Part shown: piece after piece, positions 6,084 to 13,767 of the stretch
How positions within the stretch are numbered: position 1 is the stretch's first letter
How the letters are laid out: each line of letters begins with the position of its first letter
IMG/VR virus record: IMGVR_UViG_3300032435_000001
DNA from: a virus
Length of the DNA: 64,000 nt
Direction: 5' to 3' (one strand)
Made by a program: the position numbers and the translations under genes
The notes under the pieces: generated by a model
What the model was told of the DNA's origin: nothing
Seen by the model: the letters and a program-made list of their open reading frames with translations, nothing else
Database searches by the model: none

Positions 6084-9000
6084 ATGTTGACAAATGAAGA
6101 AATATTTGAAGAATATTTACTATGTTCTGAAGACCCAAAATACGCCATTGAAAAATATTTAAAAACTTTTGATAAAACCCAAGAGGGTTTTGTACCGTTT
6201 AAGTTGTTTAAAAAACAACGTGAAATTATTGATAATTATGAAAAATACCGTTTTAATTTAATAACAAAACCGAGACAAGCTGGTATATCAACAACAACAC
6301 AAGCTTATGCTGCTATGAAATGTGTTTTTGCTGATAAAAATAACCCAGAAACAATTATTGTTATCGCTAATAAGTTGACCCTAGCTAAGAAATTTGCTAA
6401 GGGTATTAAAGATTTTGTAGCTCAAATGCCAAGATGGGCTTGGGGGCCAGAATATTATGGAACAAAGGAGAAGGAAAAGGTAACTATATTTGAAAAAGAT
6501 TCTCAAATTGAGATAGAGTTAATTAACGGTAGTAAAATTATCGCTGTGGCAACATCAACGGATGCGTTAAGGGGTTATACACCAACATTCCTTATATTTG
6601 ATGAAGCAGCTTTTATCGATAAGGGTGCGGAATTATATGGTGCGGCCATCACATCTTTAGGTTGTTTAACCAAAGAAAGTTTAATATTAACGGAAAATGG
6701 GTTAGTTGAATTAAATGAATTAGTTACCGAAAAAGATAATATTGGTTTTACTGATTTAATTACACCACATAAAGTTTGTAATATGTATGGTAATATTGTC
6801 GATGCAACTCAAACTTTTGTTAGTGAATACGGTAAAACATTTAGATTTAAAACAAAGTTAGGTATTGAATTAGAAGGTAGTTGGAAACACCCAATTTTAG
6901 TGAAAAGGGGATGTGATGATATTTGGGTTAAAATGAATGATTTAGTTGTTGGTGATGAACCAATAATACAGTACAATCAAAATTATTTTGGTGGTGATAG
7001 TTCTTTTAAATTCGAGTATAGTAAACGTAGTGATAATATAAATTTACCTATAAAATTAGAAGATAATTTAAACTTCACCTATTTGTTAGGGTTATTCCTT
7101 AGTAAAGGTAATTTCACAACAAATGGTGTTACAATTACTAATATTGATGAAAATATTAGTGACTTTTTATTAAAAGATGAAGCTAATTTAGGTAATGAAT
7201 TCAAAAAATCAGGTGATAAATATTTAACGTTTAACTCAAATGAGTTAATAGAGTGGTTTACCTTATTTGGTTTTAAAAAATGTAATGCTAGGGATAAAGA
7301 AATACCTTTAAACATTTTAAAGATGCCTAAAATGGTAATTAAGGCTTTCCTACAAGGTTTATTTGATAGTGGTAGTGTTACTACACAAAAACATATTAAA
7401 TACAGTGCAACATCAAAAAAATTAGTTAAGACATTACAGACATTATTATTGAATTTTGGAATAGTATCAAGTATTAAATATTCCAATGGTAAAAATGTTT
7501 GTGGTGTATATGATTTAAAAATACATTCGGAAGACGCTATTAAGTTTTACGATGAAATTGGCTTTAGGTTGGAAATGAAACAAAATGGTCGAGATTTTTT
7601 ATTAAATAAGATGGTAAATTCTGTATTTACATCAGTAATTGAAAATAAAAGTATATTCATAGATGAAATAGTTCTAGTTGAAGAATTTGAAGATTACACA
7701 TACGATTTACACGTCCCAGATTCTAACTCATTTATATCAAACGGTGTTATAAGTCATAATACTGGTGGTAAATCAATTCTAATTTCAACCCCAAATGGGT
7801 ATGACGCTTTGTATTATAAAACTTATGAGCAATCGATAAATGGTGATAATGATTATAACATAATAGAAATGAAATGGTATCAAGACCCAAGATACAATAA
7901 AGATTTAAGATGGTTAAATAAAGAAGGGGTTTCATTTTCTGAGGTTGAGTTTACGCATGAGTCATACGAGGCTAGTTTGAGGGAAAACCTTAAACCAACC
8001 TCTAAGTGGTATGAGGATATGTGTAAGGGTATGAATAACGATAAGAGGAGAATTTCCCAAGAGTTAGATGTATCATTTTTAGGTTCTGGTGGTAATGTAA
8101 TAGACGATGAGTATATTATGATGCAAGAAAATTTAAATGTGTGTGACCCAAAGTTTATCGATAAGAAATATTTTGATGGTCAGTACGGTTTAATTTGGGT
8201 TTGGGATGAACCAATTGAAAAACATGAGTATATTATGGCTTGTTTACCTATTGGTGAAAAAGTTTTAACTGAAAATGGGTTAGTTAATATAGAGGATGTT
8301 AAATTTAGTGATAAATTAATTGGGGAGAATGGTGAGTATGTTAATATTATTAACACTCAGATTTACCCAGTTGTTAATGAGGATGTTTATGAAGTTAAAA
8401 TGAGTAACACCTTTAGAACTACTAAATTCACAAAAGAACACCCAATATTAATTAGTAAACCAAATTTAGACCTTAATCATGAAAAAAATGATTTTAATTA
8501 CACCAAAATGGAGAGTGTTGAAATTGGGGATTGGTGTAAGGTACCTAATATTTATAAAAAAACAATTGAGGGGGTATTTGACGGTAAATGGGTTAGTAAC
8601 CCTGATTTTGATAGTGATAACCCATTAGAGGTCTTAGATTTTTGGTGGTTTATCGGAGTTTGGTTAGGTAATGGGCAATTAGATGACGTGAAAAACTCAC
8701 ATACTATGTCATTATCTTTTAATAAAACTGATACGGATAAAATGGATAAGTGTTTTTTGTTAATTAATAAAATTTTTAACGTGAAACCATCTGTAGTTGA
8801 GGAAGGTCCATTAGTGAATTTAGTATTCGATTCTAAGTTTTTATATTATTTTATATTAGAAAATTTTGGTGAGAATAAGGATAATAAAAAGATAGCAGAA
8901 TGGGTTAAATTCACACCTAAAGAATATAAAGAAGAATTGTTAAGAGGGTGTTTGGGTAGTTCTTTATTAATAAATGTTGATAAAGATAGTCCTAAGATTT

Positions 9001-10085
9001 CATTTGTTAGCGTTAATTTAACTTTATTAGAGTCTATCCAAGATATTATTTTTTCATTAGGGGTGATATCGTCAATCAATAAATTAAAGGGTGATAAGCG
9101 AAAAGAGATTTATAATTTAAAATTAAGTAATTATAGTAGTTTAGAGTTAATTAAATTATTATATGATGATTTAAATACATTTAGTTTTGTTGATGACGTA
9201 ACTTTAAATAAGGGTTCTGTAAAATCATGTCATTTTGATGATGATAAAGATTATATTTATTTTAGAGTTAACGATATAACTAGAAGTGAATACACTGGTA
9301 ATGTATATAATTTTGAATGCGAAACGCATACTTTTATGTGTCATCATATAACGACACATAATTGTGATGTTGCTAGGGGTGATGGTTCAGATAGTTCCAC
9401 TTTTCAAATAATTGATTTCACAACTATGGAACAAGTTTGTGAGTATCAAGGTAAGATACAACCCGATTTATTCGCTGAAATTATTGATGACTATGGTAAG
9501 AGGTATAACGCTTATGTTGTGGTTGATAATATTGGTGTTGGTGGGACTACCGCTATGAGGTTAGAAGAAATGAAATACCCTAATTTACATTATGATGAAT
9601 CTAAATCTAGGTTATTTAATACTAACACAAACCCTATAGATGATAAGAATAAAGTGCCAGGTTTTAACGTCAACGGAGTTAGACTTAATTTGGTTTCACT
9701 ATTAGAGGAAAAGGTTAGAACTAACACCGTTAAGATTAGGTCTAAGAGGTTAATTAATGAAATGAGAACTTTCATATATAAAAACGCTAGACCTGACCAT
9801 ATGGAAGGTTATCACGATGATTGTTTAATGGCATTAGGTATGGGTTTATGGGTATTGGAGCATTCATTTAAAAAACTTAGAAAAGTATCAGAAATGACAA
9901 AATCTATGTTAAGTGGTTGGATAATGCCTAACAATAATATTGATAGTGTGGTTAATAGTGGGTTTGTACCTAAAGATAGTAAAAATAAAAAGTCTTTACC
10001 AAAACCTAAATTTTCAGCGGTAGTAGCTAAGAATATGCAAGACCCAAATGGTGATTATAGTTGGTTATTTAGTGGTTTCAAATAA
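6084..10085 (+). CDS. terL: Terminase large subunit (T4 gp17-like) with two inteins; mature protein about 593 aa
   Basis: PF.LF..Q Q-motif, KPRQAGIST Walker A, LIFDEAAFI Walker B, ISTPNG, nuclease DVARGDGSD and HDD motifs. Confidence 0.95.
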   Translation: MLTNEEIFEEYLLCSEDPKYAIEKYLKTFDKTQEGFVPFKLFKKQREIIDNYEKYRFNLITKPRQAGISTTTQAYAAMKCVFADKNNPETIIVIANKLTLAKKFAKGIKDFVAQMPRWAWGPEYYGTKEKEKVTIFEKDSQIEIELINGSKIIAVATSTDALRGYTPTFLIFDEAAFIDKGAELYGAAITSLGCLTKESLILTENGLVELNELVTEKDNIGFTDLITPHKVCNMYGNIVDATQTFVSEYGKTFRFKTKLGIELEGSWKHPILVKRGCDDIWVKMNDLVVGDEPIIQYNQNYFGGDSSFKFEYSKRSDNINLPIKLEDNLNFTYLLGLFLSKGNFTTNGVTITNIDENISDFLLKDEANLGNEFKKSGDKYLTFNSNELIEWFTLFGFKKCNARDKEIPLNILKMPKMVIKAFLQGLFDSGSVTTQKHIKYSATSKKLVKTLQTLLLNFGIVSSIKYSNGKNVCGVYDLKIHSEDAIKFYDEIGFRLEMKQNGRDFLLNKMVNSVFTSVIENKSIFIDEIVLVEEFEDYTYDLHVPDSNSFISNGVISHNTGGKSILISTPNGYDALYYKTYEQSINGDNDYNIIEMKWYQDPRYNKDLRWLNKEGVSFSEVEFTHESYEASLRENLKPTSKWYEDMCKGMNNDKRRISQELDVSFLGSGGNVIDDEYIMMQENLNVCDPKFIDKKYFDGQYGLIWVWDEPIEKHEYIMACLPIGEKVLTENGLVNIEDVKFSDKLIGENGEYVNIINTQIYPVVNEDVYEVKMSNTFRTTKFTKEHPILISKPNLDLNHEKNDFNYTKMESVEIGDWCKVPNIYKKTIEGVFDGKWVSNPDFDSDNPLEVLDFWWFIGVWLGNGQLDDVKNSHTMSLSFNKTDTDKMDKCFLLINKIFNVKPSVVEEGPLVNLVFDSKFLYYFILENFGENKDNKKIAEWVKFTPKEYKEELLRGCLGSSLLINVDKDSPKISFVSVNLTLLESIQDIIFSLGVISSINKLKGDKRKEIYNLKLSNYSSLELIKLLYDDLNTFSFVDDVTLNKGSVKSCHFDDDKDYIYFRVNDITRSEYTGNVYNFECETHTFMCHHITTHNCDVARGDGSDSSTFQIIDFTTMEQVCEYQGKIQPDLFAEIIDDYGKRYNAYVVVDNIGVGGTTAMRLEEMKYPNLHYDESKSRLFNTNTNPIDDKNKVPGFNVNGVRLNLVSLLEEKVRTNTVKIRSKRLINEMRTFIYKNARPDHMEGYHDDCLMALGMGLWVLEHSFKKLRKVSEMTKSMLSGWIMPNNNIDSVVNSGFVPKDSKNKKSLPKPKFSAVVAKNMQDPNGDYSWLFSGFK
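6663..7760 (+). mobile_element. Intein TerL-1 (366 aa, degenerate LAGLIDADG)
   Basis: SLG|CLTKESLIL ... YTYDLHVPDSNSFISNGVISHN|TGG. Confidence 0.93.
8241..9362 (+). mobile_element. Intein TerL-2 (374 aa, degenerate LAGLIDADG)
   Basis: IMA|CLPIGEKVL ... FTKEHP ... VYNFECETHTFMCHHITTHN|CDVARG; sits just before the nuclease catalytic Asp. Confidence 0.93.
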
Positions 10086-10401: not shown

Positions 10402-13400
10402 ATGTCAAATAATAATAAAACAGTTTTCCAGAAATTAAGTGATATATTCACTAGAGATGGTGTTGCTATTAATAAACAAAATACTAATAGATATTCAATC
10501 GGTAATAATGAGATTTTAAGGACCTCATCAAAAGAAGAGTTTGAAACTGCTAAATTACAAGCACAACAAAAGAAATATTTGAGTAAAAATTGGGCTAAGA
10601 TTGATAGTGAAATGTTTCAAAAGTCAGTTCATTATGAGACAACTCGTGTTGGTTCCTATTCCGATTTTGAAAATATGGAATTTTACCCTGAAATAGCAGC
10701 AGCTTTAGATATAATGATGGAAGAGTCTACAACCGTAAATAATTATGGTAAGGTTCTTAATATATATTCAAATAGTAAAAGGGTTAAAACAATTTTAGAA
10801 GATTTAATGTTCAGTAAATTGGATTTACACACTAATCTACCAATGTGGACTAGGAATACCCCTATTAGGGAGGATAGTATTATACCATTATTAGATGGAA
10901 CTGAAGTAACTATTAAGGTGTTATCCGAAATGGTTAAAAATGGTGAGGAAGTTTGGAGTTATTCAATTCAAGATGAAACAAAAGCTATTGTACCTAGTAA
11001 AATAACATGGTGTGATTTAACTAGAAAAGATAGTGAGCTATATAGGGTAACATTAGACGATGGGACATATATTGATACCACACCAGACCATGAGTATATG
11101 CTTAGAGATGGGTCATTTAAAAGAGCCGATGAATTAATCGAAGGCCAACCTTTAATGCCTTTCCACACAAAAAAAAGTGAAAATAAAATAGATTCTATTG
11201 GTGGTTATGAGAAAGTTTATAACCCATCAAGTATCAAATATAGGTTTACACACTCTATGGTTTCAAATCAATGTATTAGGGACTTAGTTTACGAAAAATC
11301 TATTGGGGGCCAATTTGTTACGCATCACATAGATTTTAATAAATTAAATAACACCCCTAGTAATTTAATAAGGTTAACATGTTCATATAATTTAAAATTA
11401 CCTGTAGAACATTTTGATAAAACATTAGACTCACCAGAGGTTACCAAAAAAAAGGTGGGTGGGGTAAATGTATTTTCAGTTGAAAAGTTAACTGAAACTT
11501 CAGACGTATATTGTTTAGAAGCTGTTGGCCCTAATGGAGAACAAGATAGACATAATTTCCCAGTTTGTAGTAAAGACTCTAATAGTCAATACGTTAGAGG
11601 TGGTGTGTTTTTATCCAACTGTAAATATGGTGATAATTTTTTACACCTAAATATAGATGATAAGAAAGGTGTTATCGGTGTTAGGCAATTACCAAATTTT
11701 GAGATAGAACGAAGAGATTTCGATTTTTTCGAAAATATGGGTGTTGCAAATTCAGATGATAGTAATAATAAAACAAAGTTTCTTTGGAAGGGTAGAGATG
11801 TTGTGTTTAATTCTTGGCAAATAGCCCATTTTAGGTTATTAGGTGATGATAGAAAATTACCTTACGGTACCTCAGTGTTAGAGAAGGCTAGGCTAATTTG
11901 GAAACAATTACGTTTATCAGAGGATGCTATGTTGATTTATCGTGTAACTAGAGCACCAGAAAGACGTGTATATAAAATATTTGTTGGGAACATAGATAAT
12001 GAGGATGTTGAATCTTATGTTAATGATATCGCTAATAAATTTAAAAGAACACCATTGATTGACGCACAAACTGGTCAGATGGATTTAAGGTATAACCAAA
12101 TGGGTTATGACCAAGATATATTCATACCTACTAGAACTGAAAACGCTGAAACACCAATAGATACACTACCAGGTGCATGTATCGCATTAGATACCAGAAT
12201 ACCATTATTAGATGGTAGAACATTAGAGTTAAGTGAAATAATAAGTGAATGGGATAATGGTAATAAAGATATGTTGGTTTACTCTTGTGACCCTAATACA
12301 GGTGCCATGGCCCCAGGGATTATAACATGGGCTGGTGAAACTAGAATGAACACTGAAGTTATGAAAATAACGTTAGATAATGGTGAGTCTATCACAACAA
12401 CACCTGACCATAAATGGGTACATAGAACCAAAGGATTCGTTGAGGCTCAAGATTTGGTTGTTGGTGATTCATTAATGCCTTTCTATAGAGATACTAATGA
12501 ACGTGAGAAAGTTTGGGATTCAGCTAAACAAGAGTGGGTATTTACATATATAATGGTTAATGATTTTACAAAAAATGAAGGCGTTGAAAATAAAATGTCC
12601 GATGCTGAGGCTAATTATAACCATAAAATAATTACTATTGAATTTCTGGAATTGAAGCAAGATACTGGTACAATTACCGTAGATGGTGATGAATTATACC
12701 ATAATTACCACACATTCGCAACAGAAGCTGGAGTGTTTATTAAAAATTCTAATCTAGACCAAATAGCTGATATTGAGTATTTACAAAGGAAATTATTCAC
12801 AGCTTTAAGAGTACCTAAATCGTTTTTGGGTTTTGATGAGGCGACTGGTGAAGGTAAGAACTTAGCTTTACAAGATATTCGTTTTTCCAGAACGATTAAT
12901 AGGATTCAACAATCTATGATTCAGGAGCTAAATAAGATTGCGATTATCCACCTATACCTTTTAGGTTTTGAGGATGATTTAGATAACTTTACATTAACAC
13001 TTAATAACCCATCAACACAAGCTGAAATGCTTAAAGTAGAGCATTTGGGTAATAAATTTGATGTTTATAAGAACGCTGTGAGTGATGCTGGTAATGGTTT
13101 TGCCACAATGTCAATGACTAGGGCCAAGCGTGATATATTAGGTTGGAGTGCTGACGAGATAAAGCAAGATTTAATTGAACAAAGAATGGAAAAGGCCGCT
13201 GCTTCCGAATTAGAAAACACTTCTAACGTAATTAAACATACGGGTTATTTTGACACGGTTGATAAGATTTATGGTGATATGGATGTTGCGCTAAAAGGTG
13301 GTGGCGGTGAAGATGATGCTGATGTTGATAGTGAAGGTGGTTCACCTGATGGTGGCGGTTTCGGAGGTGGTTTCAGTGATGATGCTGGTGGTGATGATTT

Positions 13401-13767
13401 AGATTTCGGTGATGAGGATGATACCATTGAAGATGATGCTATTGAAGGTGGAACTGACGATGCTATTGAAGGTGGAGCTGATGATGCTGCTGAGGATGGT
13501 GAGGGTGATGACTTCTCGTTTGAATCTAAAACACTTAGAAGTAATTTAATTAATGAGAAAATTGGTGAGCGAAAGTTAATCTTAAATAAAAAATTAGAAA
13601 ATCGTAAGGGTAAGTACGTTAAAAATTATTTAAATAAATTAATTGAGTCGGTTACTATTAATGGTGTTGATGACACGGTAGAGCGTAACATTGATTCTAA
13701 AAATGAAAAAATAAATAGTAACATCAATAAAATGATGATTGAAATAGATAAAAAATTAAAAGAGTAA
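10402..13767 (+). CDS. Portal protein (T4 gp20-like) with two inteins and an acidic C-terminal extension; about 678 aa spliced
   Basis: YPEIAAALD, KYGDNF, EDAMLIYRVTRAPERRVYKIFVGN, IDTLPG, DIEYLQRKLFTALRVPKS, DIRFSRTINRIQ. Confidence 0.93.
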   Translation: MSNNNKTVFQKLSDIFTRDGVAINKQNTNRYSIGNNEILRTSSKEEFETAKLQAQQKKYLSKNWAKIDSEMFQKSVHYETTRVGSYSDFENMEFYPEIAAALDIMMEESTTVNNYGKVLNIYSNSKRVKTILEDLMFSKLDLHTNLPMWTRNTPIREDSIIPLLDGTEVTIKVLSEMVKNGEEVWSYSIQDETKAIVPSKITWCDLTRKDSELYRVTLDDGTYIDTTPDHEYMLRDGSFKRADELIEGQPLMPFHTKKSENKIDSIGGYEKVYNPSSIKYRFTHSMVSNQCIRDLVYEKSIGGQFVTHHIDFNKLNNTPSNLIRLTCSYNLKLPVEHFDKTLDSPEVTKKKVGGVNVFSVEKLTETSDVYCLEAVGPNGEQDRHNFPVCSKDSNSQYVRGGVFLSNCKYGDNFLHLNIDDKKGVIGVRQLPNFEIERRDFDFFENMGVANSDDSNNKTKFLWKGRDVVFNSWQIAHFRLLGDDRKLPYGTSVLEKARLIWKQLRLSEDAMLIYRVTRAPERRVYKIFVGNIDNEDVESYVNDIANKFKRTPLIDAQTGQMDLRYNQMGYDQDIFIPTRTENAETPIDTLPGACIALDTRIPLLDGRTLELSEIISEWDNGNKDMLVYSCDPNTGAMAPGIITWAGETRMNTEVMKITLDNGESITTTPDHKWVHRTKGFVEAQDLVVGDSLMPFYRDTNEREKVWDSAKQEWVFTYIMVNDFTKNEGVENKMSDAEANYNHKIITIEFLELKQDTGTITVDGDELYHNYHTFATEAGVFIKNSNLDQIADIEYLQRKLFTALRVPKSFLGFDEATGEGKNLALQDIRFSRTINRIQQSMIQELNKIAIIHLYLLGFEDDLDNFTLTLNNPSTQAEMLKVEHLGNKFDVYKNAVSDAGNGFATMSMTRAKRDILGWSADEIKQDLIEQRMEKAAASELENTSNVIKHTGYFDTVDKIYGDMDVALKGGGGEDDADVDSEGGSPDGGGFGGGFSDDAGGDDLDFGDEDDTIEDDAIEGGTDDAIEGGADDAAEDGEGDDFSFESKTLRSNLINEKIGERKLILNKKLENRKGKYVKNYLNKLIESVTINGVDDTVERNIDSKNEKINSNINKMMIEIDKKLKE
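10861..11619 (+). mobile_element. Intein Portal-1 (253 aa): Pro1 start, Cys at F4, ends SN|C, HNH-like remnant
   Basis: TRNT|PIREDSIIPLLDG ... TTPDH ... HHIDFNKLNN.PSNL ... DVYCLE ... HNF ... GVFLSN|CKYGDNF. Confidence 0.85.
12178..12747 (+). mobile_element. Intein Portal-2 (190-aa mini-intein, ends KN|S)
   Basis: LPGA|CIALDTRIPLLDG ... TTPDHKW ... HTFATEAGVFIKN|SNLDQIADIEY. Confidence 0.9.

What the first reader, a model, noticed from the sequence alone, without database searches (positions are those of the whole stretch)
10861..11619. Portal intein with no N-terminal nucleophile (Pro1) and Cys at F4 but not the full class 3 WCT signature
Seen: the N-terminus PIREDSIIPLLDG aligns without gaps to CIALDTRIPLLDG of the second portal intein, so residue 1 is Pro. 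Block F reads DVYCLE (Cys codon 11512-11514), block B reads TPDHEY, and the end is FLSN|C. Known: inteins lacking Cys1/Ser1 splice either via a Cys-F4 branched intermediate (class 3, normally Trp-B12/Cys-F4/Thr-G5) or by direct Cys+1 attack (class 2, KlbA type, Ala1). This one has Cys-F4 and Cys+1 but Tyr at B12, Leu at G5 and no penultimate His. Inference: because the portal is essential it probably splices, so it may be a variant or independently evolved non-canonical splicing type.
Basis: partly seen in the sequence, partly recalled or inferred. Interest (0 to 1): 0.82.

Follow-up and report, generated by a model that had tools for sequence, protein, structure and literature searches.

The report
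Proline-first portal intein, internal cysteine nucleophile
The portal gene of this phage carries a self-splicing protein insert that starts with proline instead of the usual cysteine. It belongs to a large, uncharacterised metagenomic lineage that most likely splices through an internal cysteine, as known "class 3" inteins do, but lacks their other signature residues.

Summary
Window 10861-11619 encodes a 253-aa intein in a T4-type portal gene. Intein-free homologs fix the junction at MWTRNT|P...N|CKYGD.

The key residues are Pro1, His at B10, Tyr at B12, Cys218 at block F4, Leu-Ser-Asn at G5-G7 and Cys+1.

It is not a one-off:
- Among 470 related inteins, 203 start with Pro, and all 203 have Cys at F4.
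- Cys1/Ser1 relatives mostly have Asp, Thr or Asn there.
- Pro1 is written with all four proline codons.
- The -1 residue varies between Thr, Leu and Met, so it is not the nucleophile.
- No member carries the WCT triplet (YCL 79, FCV 69).

The most likely mechanism is class 3-type splicing with Cys-F4 as first nucleophile. This is inferred, not shown.

In sequence and modelled fold the lineage is much nearer to class 1 portal inteins than to WCT class 3 inteins. It is not nested inside the sampled WCT clade. However, an AU test does not reject a sister relation, so independent origin remains open.

The class 3 prototype itself begins with Pro1, and FCV triplets were tabulated in 2020. This scan has noted the same lineage in other genomes.

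Verdict: a new variant of a known kind.

The parts
10402..13767 (+). T4-type portal (gp20-like) gene, 1121 codons, carrying two inteins
   Evidence: ORF list. Pfam Portal_T4 E 4.7e-63 and Intein_splicing E 1e-22.
10861..11619 (+). Intein 1, 253 aa, from Pro1 to Asn253. The N-extein ends MWTRNT and the C-extein starts CKYGD.
   Evidence: Junction fixed by intein-free homologs and by about 100 homologous portal inteins. HINT-fold model.
10861..10863 (+). Pro1 codon (CCT), a non-nucleophilic first residue
   Evidence: 203 of 470 related inteins start with Pro. All four Pro codons are used among 42 distinct DNAs.
11011..11013 (+). Cys51 (motif WC), a lineage-specific second cysteine of unknown role
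   Evidence: Cys in 196/203 Pro1 inteins, against Ala in most class 1 relatives.
11080..11097 (+). Block B, TPDHEY: Thr74 (B7), His77 (B10), Tyr79 (B12)
   Evidence: Sequence. In the 203 Pro1 inteins B10 is His in all, and B12 is Phe 97, Tyr 89, Trp 7.
11308..11391 (+). Remnant HNH endonuclease motif. About 172 aa of the endonuclease part are missing after intein residue 203 (about 11469), compared with 425-aa relatives.
   Evidence: Pfam HNH_3, weak (E 0.0011, below cutoff). Alignment gap spans columns 219-397. Model pLDDT is below 50 at the deletion junction.
11512..11514 (+). Cys218 at block F position 4, the proposed first nucleophile
   Evidence: Invariant in 203/203 Pro1 inteins. Same column as Asp in class 1 relatives and as the Cys of WCT class 3 inteins.
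11545..11559 (+). DRHNF: Asp229, Arg230 (F12), His231 (F13)
   Evidence: His in 203/203. Arg in 197/203 Pro1 inteins, against Tyr, Asn or His in class 1 relatives.
11611..11622 (+). Block G: Leu251 (G5), Ser252 (G6), Asn253 (G7), then Cys+1
   Evidence: Sequence. In the lineage G5 is Leu or Val (Thr 2/203), G6 is never His, and G7 is Asn.
12178..12747 (+). Intein 2, 190 aa. A class 1-type relative: Cys1, Trp at B12, Thr at F4, Lys at G6, Asn, then Ser+1.
   Evidence: It falls in the clade next to the Pro1 clade.

Best explanation
Window 10861-11619 is a functional intein of the portal protein. It splices without an N-terminal nucleophile, by the class 3 route.

Proposed steps:
1. Cys218 (block F4), positioned by block B His77, attacks the Thr(-1)-Pro1 peptide bond and takes the N-extein as a branched thioester.
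2. The N-extein passes to Cys+1 by trans-thioesterification.
3. Asn253 cyclises and releases the intein.
4. An S-to-N shift seals MWTRNT-CKYGD.

The intein belongs to a large lineage of portal inteins from uncultured T4-like phages. That lineage has its own signature: Pro1; [TA]xxHx[FY]; YC[LM]E...DRHNF; GVF[LV]SN. It does not have the Trp-Cys-Thr triplet.

This copy has lost most of its HNH homing endonuclease, so it probably no longer moves.

Shown here: the anatomy, the junction, the conservation, the Pro1/Cys-F4 covariation and the fold. Inferred: splicing itself and the identity of the first nucleophile.
For: Junction and fold.

Pro1 always goes with Cys-F4. It is 203 of 203, while 230 Cys1/Ser1 relatives (34 Cys1/Cys-F4 inteins set apart) have Asp 165, Thr 49 or Asn 13 at F4.

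Selection keeps Pro at residue 1: codons CCT 18, CCA 18, CCC 4, CCG 1 among 42 distinct DNAs.

The -1 residue varies (Leu 84, Thr 70, Met 25), so it is not a nucleophile.

Lineage members at two further portal sites have Ser or Thr at +1 (58 of 203). No intein is known to splice by direct attack of a +1 Ser or Thr on the amide bond. Cys-F4 stays invariant at those sites.

His B10, His F13, Asn G7 and the +1 nucleophile are conserved in all members, in open frames on contigs of up to 378 kb.

Precedents:
- The class 3 prototype starts with Pro1 and absolutely requires Cys-F4 (PMC2807308; sequence).
- AceL NrdHF splices by the class 3 route with an MCT triplet and without the F13 and G6 histidines (PMC7891396).
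- Phage inteins often lack the penultimate His (PMC5050341).
- Class 3 was defined operationally as no Cys1 plus Cys at C2:4 (PMC7891396).
Against: There is no experiment.

Thr G5, part of the proposed Cys-His-Thr triad of class 3 inteins (PMC7664689), is Leu here. Trp B12, needed for N-terminal activation in MP-Be, is Tyr here.

Cys+1 makes the second step isoenergetic, rather than downhill as with Ser or Thr at +1.

Grafting WCT onto a class 1 intein did not give splicing (PMC7664689), so Cys at F4 alone is not sufficient.

The deletion in this copy ends right at the start of the C-terminal splicing strand and removes the nearly invariant NHK motif, which could impair folding.

Confidence: 0.7

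Rival explanations
1. Class 2 (KlbA-like) route. Cys+1 attacks the Thr(-1)-Pro1 amide bond directly, and Cys218 is only structural or regulatory, for example as a redox-sensitive disulfide partner of Cys+1 or Cys51.
For: This intein has Cys+1 and no N-terminal nucleophile, as KlbA inteins do (PMC2807308). All 145 site-a members have Cys+1. Disulfide control through intein cysteines is reported in the abstract of PMC6195587, not read further here.
Against: KlbA inteins carry Asp at F4, which activates Cys+1. Here F4 is Cys in 203/203. 58 lineage members at other sites have Ser or Thr at +1 with the same Pro1/Cys-F4 pair. The model matches KlbA worst among the intein classes: Z 14.5 against 16.3-21.2.
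Confidence: 0.12
2. This particular copy no longer splices, or splices poorly, because the internal deletion damaged the fold. The genome would then be a defective or decaying variant.
For: About 172 aa are deleted up to the first strand of the C-terminal splicing domain, and the NHK motif is lost. The model has pLDDT below 50 at residues 188-205.
Against: All catalytic positions match the lineage consensus. The splicing core is modelled at pLDDT 90-96. Natural mini-inteins of 155-261 aa are common in the lineage, and one of them (P0115) also lacks NH. The identical portal protein is recorded on 5 contigs. The portal is essential.
Confidence: 0.08
3. Thr(-1) is really residue 1 and acts as a class 1 nucleophile. 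The spliced junction would then read MWTRN-CKYG.
For: Thr precedes Pro in this copy.
Against: Intein-free homologs keep the extra residue. The position is Leu, Met, Phe, Val or Ile in well over half of the lineage. Pro aligns with Cys1 of relatives without a gap.
Confidence: 0.02

Closest known systems
Class 3 inteins with the WCT triplet: MP-Be 'DnaB' intein (in GenBank it lies in the Bethlehem large terminase, P0263 residues 141-481), Msm DnaBi1 (PDB 6BS8), MchDnaB1 (6RIX)
   Same: Pro1 or another non-nucleophile at residue 1. Cys at block F4 in the same alignment column. His at B10 and a C-terminal Asn. Phage setting.
   Different: B12 is Tyr or Phe, not Trp. G5 is Leu or Val, not Thr. G6 is Ser, not His. 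+1 is Cys here. B7 is Thr or Ala.

The endonuclease is HNH rather than LAGLIDADG. The lineage has a 4-aa F-loop insert and a 12-aa insert between blocks F and G, Arg at F12 and Cys51.

The lineage N-terminal HMM scores WCT inteins at -4 to 12 bits, against a median of 51-98 bits for class 1 relatives. Structural Z is 16.3-16.5, against 19-21 for class 1 mini-inteins.
AceL NrdHF split intein (PDB 6ZGQ; PMC7891396)
   Same: Shown to use the class 3 route despite a deviant triplet (MCT) and no penultimate His. It comes from a phage-like metagenomic contig.
   Different: It keeps Thr at G5, lacks His at F13, is split and starts with Ala1. Only 10% identity to the model, Z 16.7.
FCV-triplet inteins counted among 1702 class 3 inteins (7 cases; Table S1 of PMC7891396)
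   Same: The same deviant triplet as 69 of the 203 lineage members. They were counted as class 3 under the operational rule of no Cys1 plus Cys at C2:4.
   Different: They were only tabulated. I found no description or test. Their identity is not given, so membership in this lineage is unverified. The YCL triplet of this copy is not in that table.
Class 1 portal inteins of the same phages, including intein 2 of this gene, and the solved NrdJ-1, Ssp DnaB and Npu DnaE inteins
   Same: These are the nearest relatives by sequence (35% identity over 136 residues to intein 2) and by fold (Z 18-21). They share Phe/Tyr at B12 and Val/Leu/Ile at G5.
   Different: They start with Cys1 or Ser1 and mostly have Asp, Thr or Asn at F4.
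Class 2 KlbA inteins (Mja KlbA, PDB 2JMZ)
   Same: No N-terminal nucleophile, and Cys+1.
   Different: Ala1 and Asp at F4. No block F cysteine. Z 14.5.

Membership tests
Intein (HINT splicing domain) | HINT fold with blocks A, B, F and G, a C-terminal Asn and a +1 nucleophile, inserted in a conserved host protein | tested here: met
   Pfam PF14890. Model Z 21.2, rmsd 1.7 over 147 residues to NrdJ-1. Junction fixed by intein-free portals.
Class 3 inteins | No Cys/Ser/Thr nucleophile at residue 1 | tested here: met
   Pro1. Conserved with four synonymous codons.
Class 3 inteins | Cys at block F position 4 (C2:4) | tested here: met
   Cys218. 203/203 in the lineage. Same column as the WCT Cys and the class 1 Asp.
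Class 3 inteins | Trp at block B position 12 | tested here: not met
   Tyr79 here. In the lineage: Phe 97, Tyr 89, Trp 7 of 203.
Class 3 inteins | Thr at block G position 5 | tested here: not met
   Leu251 here. In the lineage: Leu 95, Val 84, Thr 2. No WCT triplet in 203.
Class 3 inteins | Ser or Thr at +1 (usual, not absolute) | tested here: not met
   Cys+1 at this site. Lineage members at other portal sites have Ser or Thr.
Class 3 inteins | Thiol-labile block F branched intermediate, and obligate need for Cys-F4 | not testable with these tools
   Needs splicing assays and mass spectrometry.
Class 3 inteins | Descent from the WCT clade | tested here: inconclusive
   The WCT clade is separated by a 100% SH-aLRT branch, and the Pro1 clade is not inside it. 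A sister relation is not rejected (p-AU 0.58 and 0.50).
Class 2 (KlbA) inteins | No residue-1 nucleophile, Cys+1, Asp at F4 and no block F cysteine | tested here: not met
   F4 is Cys, not Asp.
Class 1 inteins | Cys, Ser or Thr at residue 1 | tested here: not met
   Pro1. The nearest relatives are nevertheless class 1.

The most novel reading that the evidence does not exclude
The Pro1 portal lineage is a second origin of block-F-cysteine splicing. It arose stepwise inside a class 1 intein radiation: Cys1/Asp-F4, then Cys1/Cys-F4 dual-nucleophile forms, then Pro1/Cys-F4. It has its own compensating set (Arg F12, Asp F11, a Glu-bearing F-loop insert, Cys51) in place of Trp B12 and Thr G5.

That would show that a class 1 intein can turn into a class 3-type one by divergence. 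It would also supply the natural intermediates, against the argument that such a path is improbable (PMC7664689).
Probability: 0.4. Interest if true: 0.8.

Novelty: new variant of a known kind. Interest (0 to 1): 0.62.

Why it matters
Class 3 splicing is currently defined by the WCT triplet, which was found in about 92% (weighted) of 1702 catalogued class 3 inteins. This lineage has hundreds of members in metagenomes and none in 50,697 GenBank phage records. It keeps only the Pro1/Cys-F4 pair, and it sits in sequence space among ordinary class 1 inteins, next to natural Cys1/Cys-F4 forms.

If it splices through Cys-F4, Trp B12 and Thr G5 are not required for that chemistry. A different set of helper residues could then be mapped. 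How one splicing mechanism evolves into another would become testable with natural intermediates.

The mini versions (155-175 aa) could also be useful as cysteine-first-independent ligation tools.

For this genome, the practical consequence is correct annotation: the mature portal is the 1121-aa product minus 253 aa and 190 aa.

Tried and rejected
1. Thr(-1) as residue 1. Rejected by intein-free homologs and by Leu, Met or Ile at -1 in relatives.

2. Sequencing error or recent mutation of a TCT Ser codon. Rejected because Pro1 is conserved in 203 inteins with four codons.

3. AU test on the full 158-row alignment. It did not finish after 862 s and was replaced by a 58-row subset.

4. Claim of independent origin. 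Not sustained, because the AU test does not reject Pro1 clade plus WCT as one clade, with or without the trait columns.

5. Bethlehem gp52 phosphoesterase intein. It starts with Cys1 and is not the class 3 prototype. The prototype lies in the large terminase gene.

6. Mapping the insertion site onto T4 gp20 structures. phmmer aligns only from residue 238 of the intein-free portal onward, so the site could not be placed.

7. Measuring the distance from Cys218 to the scissile bond. Model coordinates are not exposed.

8. The look-up of encoding contigs, for the sample and source of the portal.

9. Sequence search of PDB with the single intein and with a profile. Only class 1 inteins and one BIL domain were matched, and no class 3 chain passed E 1.

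Full report
**Observation.** The ORF at 10402-13767 (+) encodes a 1121-aa protein. Pfam gives Portal_T4 (E 4.7e-63) and Intein_splicing (E 1e-22).

- CCT at 10861-10863 is Pro, preceded by Thr.
- Block B reads TPDHEY.
- TGT at 11512-11514 is the Cys in DVYCLE.
- The insert ends FLSN and is followed by TGT, which is Cys.

The N-terminal half aligns without a gap to the second portal intein, at 35% identity over 136 residues, with Pro opposite its Cys1.

Two intein-free portals fix the junction. Flavobacterium phage immuto reads NLWSWIRNM|CKYGD. The uncultured phage LR756508 reads WWVRTL|TKYGD. With Pro as residue 1 the spliced product MWTRNT-CKYGD has exactly their spacing. With Thr as residue 1 it would be one residue short.

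**It is a lineage, not an accident.** A word-indexed search restricted to the intein region returned 216 portal-type proteins. In about 100 of the 104 whose junctions I could parse, the intein at this site starts with Pro. Four start with Cys. All carry VYC[LM]E, DRHNF and GVF[LV]SN|CKYGD.

An exhaustive HMMER search found 3664 proteins with related inteins, many with several inteins each.

I built HMMs of the N- and C-terminal splicing halves from a 40-sequence alignment of IMG/VR loci and iterated the C-terminal one. This delimited 470 complete inteins in the 261 proteins held. As a quality check, position G7 is Asn or Gln in all paired N/C domains (512), and +1 is Ser, Cys or Thr in all but one.

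| Residue 1 | F4 | Count |
|---|---|---|
| Pro | Cys | 203 |
| Pro | anything else | 0 |
| Cys | Asp | 159 |
| Cys | Thr | 49 |
| Cys | Cys | 34 |
| Cys | Asn | 13 |
| Ser | Asp | 6 |

The Pro1/Cys-F4 inteins occupy at least three portal sites:
- W.R..|CK[YF]GD: 145 inteins, all with Cys+1.
- RYN..|S/T: 46 inteins.
- PGG..|T and a few others: 12 inteins. Together with the RYN site this gives 58 with Ser or Thr at +1.

Among 42 distinct DNA versions, residue 1 is written CCT 18, CCA 18, CCC 4, CCG 1 and TGT 1. Selection therefore keeps proline.

The -1 residue is Leu 84, Thr 70 or Met 25, so it is not a nucleophile.

Within the 203:
- B10 and F13 are always His.
- G7 is Asn.
- B12 is Phe 97, Tyr 89, Trp 7.
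- G5 is Leu 95, Val 84, Thr 2.
- G6 is Ser 113, Lys 33, Ala 19, and never His.
- The B12/F4/G5 triplets are YCL 79, FCV 69, FCL 16, YCV 9 and others, with WCT absent.

**Structure.** An AlphaFold model of the intein with native flanks, built on the 40-row alignment, has mean pLDDT 82.8 and pTM 0.80. The splicing core is at 90-96. The only disordered stretch lies at residues 188-205.

It is a HINT fold. The best matches are class 1 mini-inteins: NrdJ-1 (Z 21.2, rmsd 1.7, 147 aligned), Ssp DnaB (20.5) and Npu DnaB (19.3). Class 3 AceL NrdHF scores 16.7, Msm DnaBi1 16.5 and MchDnaB1 16.3. Class 2 KlbA scores 14.5.

Coordinates are not exposed, so I could not measure the distance from Cys218 to the scissile bond.

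**The endonuclease.** Full-length relatives are 417-432 aa, with a weak HNH_3 match. This copy keeps the HNH-like motif (window 11308-11391) but lacks one block of about 172 aa after residue 203. It is therefore probably immobile.

The deletion ends at the first strand of the C-terminal splicing half and removes a nearly invariant NHK motif. Natural minis of 155-261 aa are common in the lineage, and one of them also lacks that motif.

**Mechanism.** The best-supported reading is the class 3 route. Cys-F4 attacks the peptide bond before Pro1. The N-extein then passes to Cys+1, Asn253 cyclises, and an S-to-N shift follows.

The grounds are:
- the absolute Pro1/Cys-F4 covariation;
- the invariance of Cys-F4 at sites where +1 is Ser or Thr, where direct attack on an amide has no precedent;
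- the conserved His B10.

The published precedents are:
- The prototype MP-Be intein begins with Pro1 and has an obligate Cys-F4 (PMC2807308). I located it in the Bethlehem large terminase as PLALNTE...ILTHN|T.
- AceL NrdHF uses the class 3 route with an MCT triplet and without the F13 and G6 histidines (PMC7891396).
- Penultimate His is often absent in phage inteins, and restoring it in one case slowed splicing (PMC5050341).

Against this reading:
- Thr G5 of the proposed Cys-His-Thr triad is absent, and so is Trp B12.
- Grafting WCT on a class 1 intein gave no splicing (PMC7664689).

Splicing and the first nucleophile are inferred, not shown.

**Lineage-specific helpers.** I compared 203 Pro1 inteins with 230 Cys1/Ser1 relatives column by column. 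Besides residue 1 and F4, the sharpest differences are:
- Arg at F12 (197/203, against Tyr, Asn or His);
- Asp at F11;
- a 4-residue F-loop insert (PNGE, with Glu in 187/203);
- Val rather than Asp or Glu at F8;
- a 12-residue insert between blocks F and G;
- Cys at intein residue 51 (196/203, against Ala).

These are candidates for the compensating changes that class 3 chemistry is thought to need. Their roles are unknown.

**Relation to known class 3 inteins.** By sequence the lineage is close to class 1 portal inteins. Its N-terminal HMM scores them at a median of 51-98 bits. It scores nine WCT inteins from GenBank phages at -4 to 12 bits. PDB sequence searches found only class 1 inteins and one BIL domain.

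In a 158-row tree (144 columns, SH-aLRT support only):
- The WCT inteins form a clade behind a 100% branch.
- All 38 Pro1 representatives fall in one clade, together with six Cys1/Cys-F4 inteins of the same site nested inside it.
- The neighbouring clade holds most other Cys1/Cys-F4 inteins and this gene's intein 2.

A 58-row subset gives the same picture. With WCT as outgroup it reads as Cys1/Asp-F4, then Cys1/Cys-F4, then Pro1/Cys-F4, with supports of 88-92.

The position of the long WCT branch is not determined, however. Forcing WCT and the Pro1 clade together costs nothing: lnL is 3.3 higher with p-AU 0.58, and with the four trait columns removed lnL is 0.3 lower with p-AU 0.50.

So the intein is not nested inside the sampled WCT clade. 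Independent origin is not demonstrated either.

**What is already known.** Hoffmann et al. defined class 3 as no Cys1 plus Cys at C2:4. They counted FCV seven times among 1702 such inteins, and YCL is not listed. I found no paper describing or testing such inteins.

No member of the lineage is present in 50,697 GenBank phage records. The best hits are 28-34% identical inteins in other genes.

The scan's own notes show the same lineage reported from other genomes. One follow-up concluded it had reached the class 3 strategy on its own. My AU tests weaken that conclusion.

**Verdict.** It is a new variant of a known kind: a non-WCT, Pro1/Cys-F4 intein lineage with HNH endonucleases in T4-type portals. 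This copy is one endonuclease-depleted member.

Noticed in passing
window 11011-11013 (intein residue 51): A second cysteine (motif WC) is nearly fixed in the Pro1 lineage (196/203). It is Ala in most class 1 relatives. Its role is unknown, and a disulfide or metal partner of Cys218 or Cys+1 is conceivable.
   Followed up: partly
window 11524-11559 and 11566-11601: The lineage has a specific 4-aa F-loop insert (PNGE), an Asp-Arg pair before the F13 His, and a 12-aa insert between blocks F and G. All are absent from class 1 relatives and from WCT inteins.
   Followed up: partly
window 12178-12747: Second portal intein, 190 aa: Cys1, Trp at B12, Thr at F4, penultimate Lys, Ser+1. It belongs to a clade in which close relatives have Cys at F4 together with Cys1.
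   Followed up: partly
P0062, P0103, P0115, P0121, P0173, P0190 (portal site W.R..|CKYGD); L072:3016-4275: These Cys1 inteins have Cys at F4 and carry all the Pro1-lineage features. They are nested inside the Pro1 clade. They are either reversions or dual-nucleophile forms, and are natural material for testing which cysteine starts splicing.
   Followed up: partly
P0122 (2818 aa), P0124, P0123 and others: Portal proteins of related uncultured phages carry up to eight matched stretches to the intein query (P0122). Pro1/Cys-F4 and Cys1 inteins occur side by side in one polypeptide.
   Followed up: no
window 6084-10085: The upstream 1333-aa ORF is a T4-type large terminase (Terminase_6N). It is interrupted by intein sequence with a LAGLIDADG endonuclease. 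The Pro1-lineage HMMs do not detect it, so it belongs to a different intein family.
   Followed up: partly
L082:12578-14296 (Mycobacterium phage Bethlehem gp52): The phosphoesterase intein of Bethlehem starts with Cys1 but has Cys at F4 (VWCLRV), Thr at G5 and a penultimate Gly. It is another Cys1/Cys-F4 combination, outside the portal lineage.
   Followed up: no
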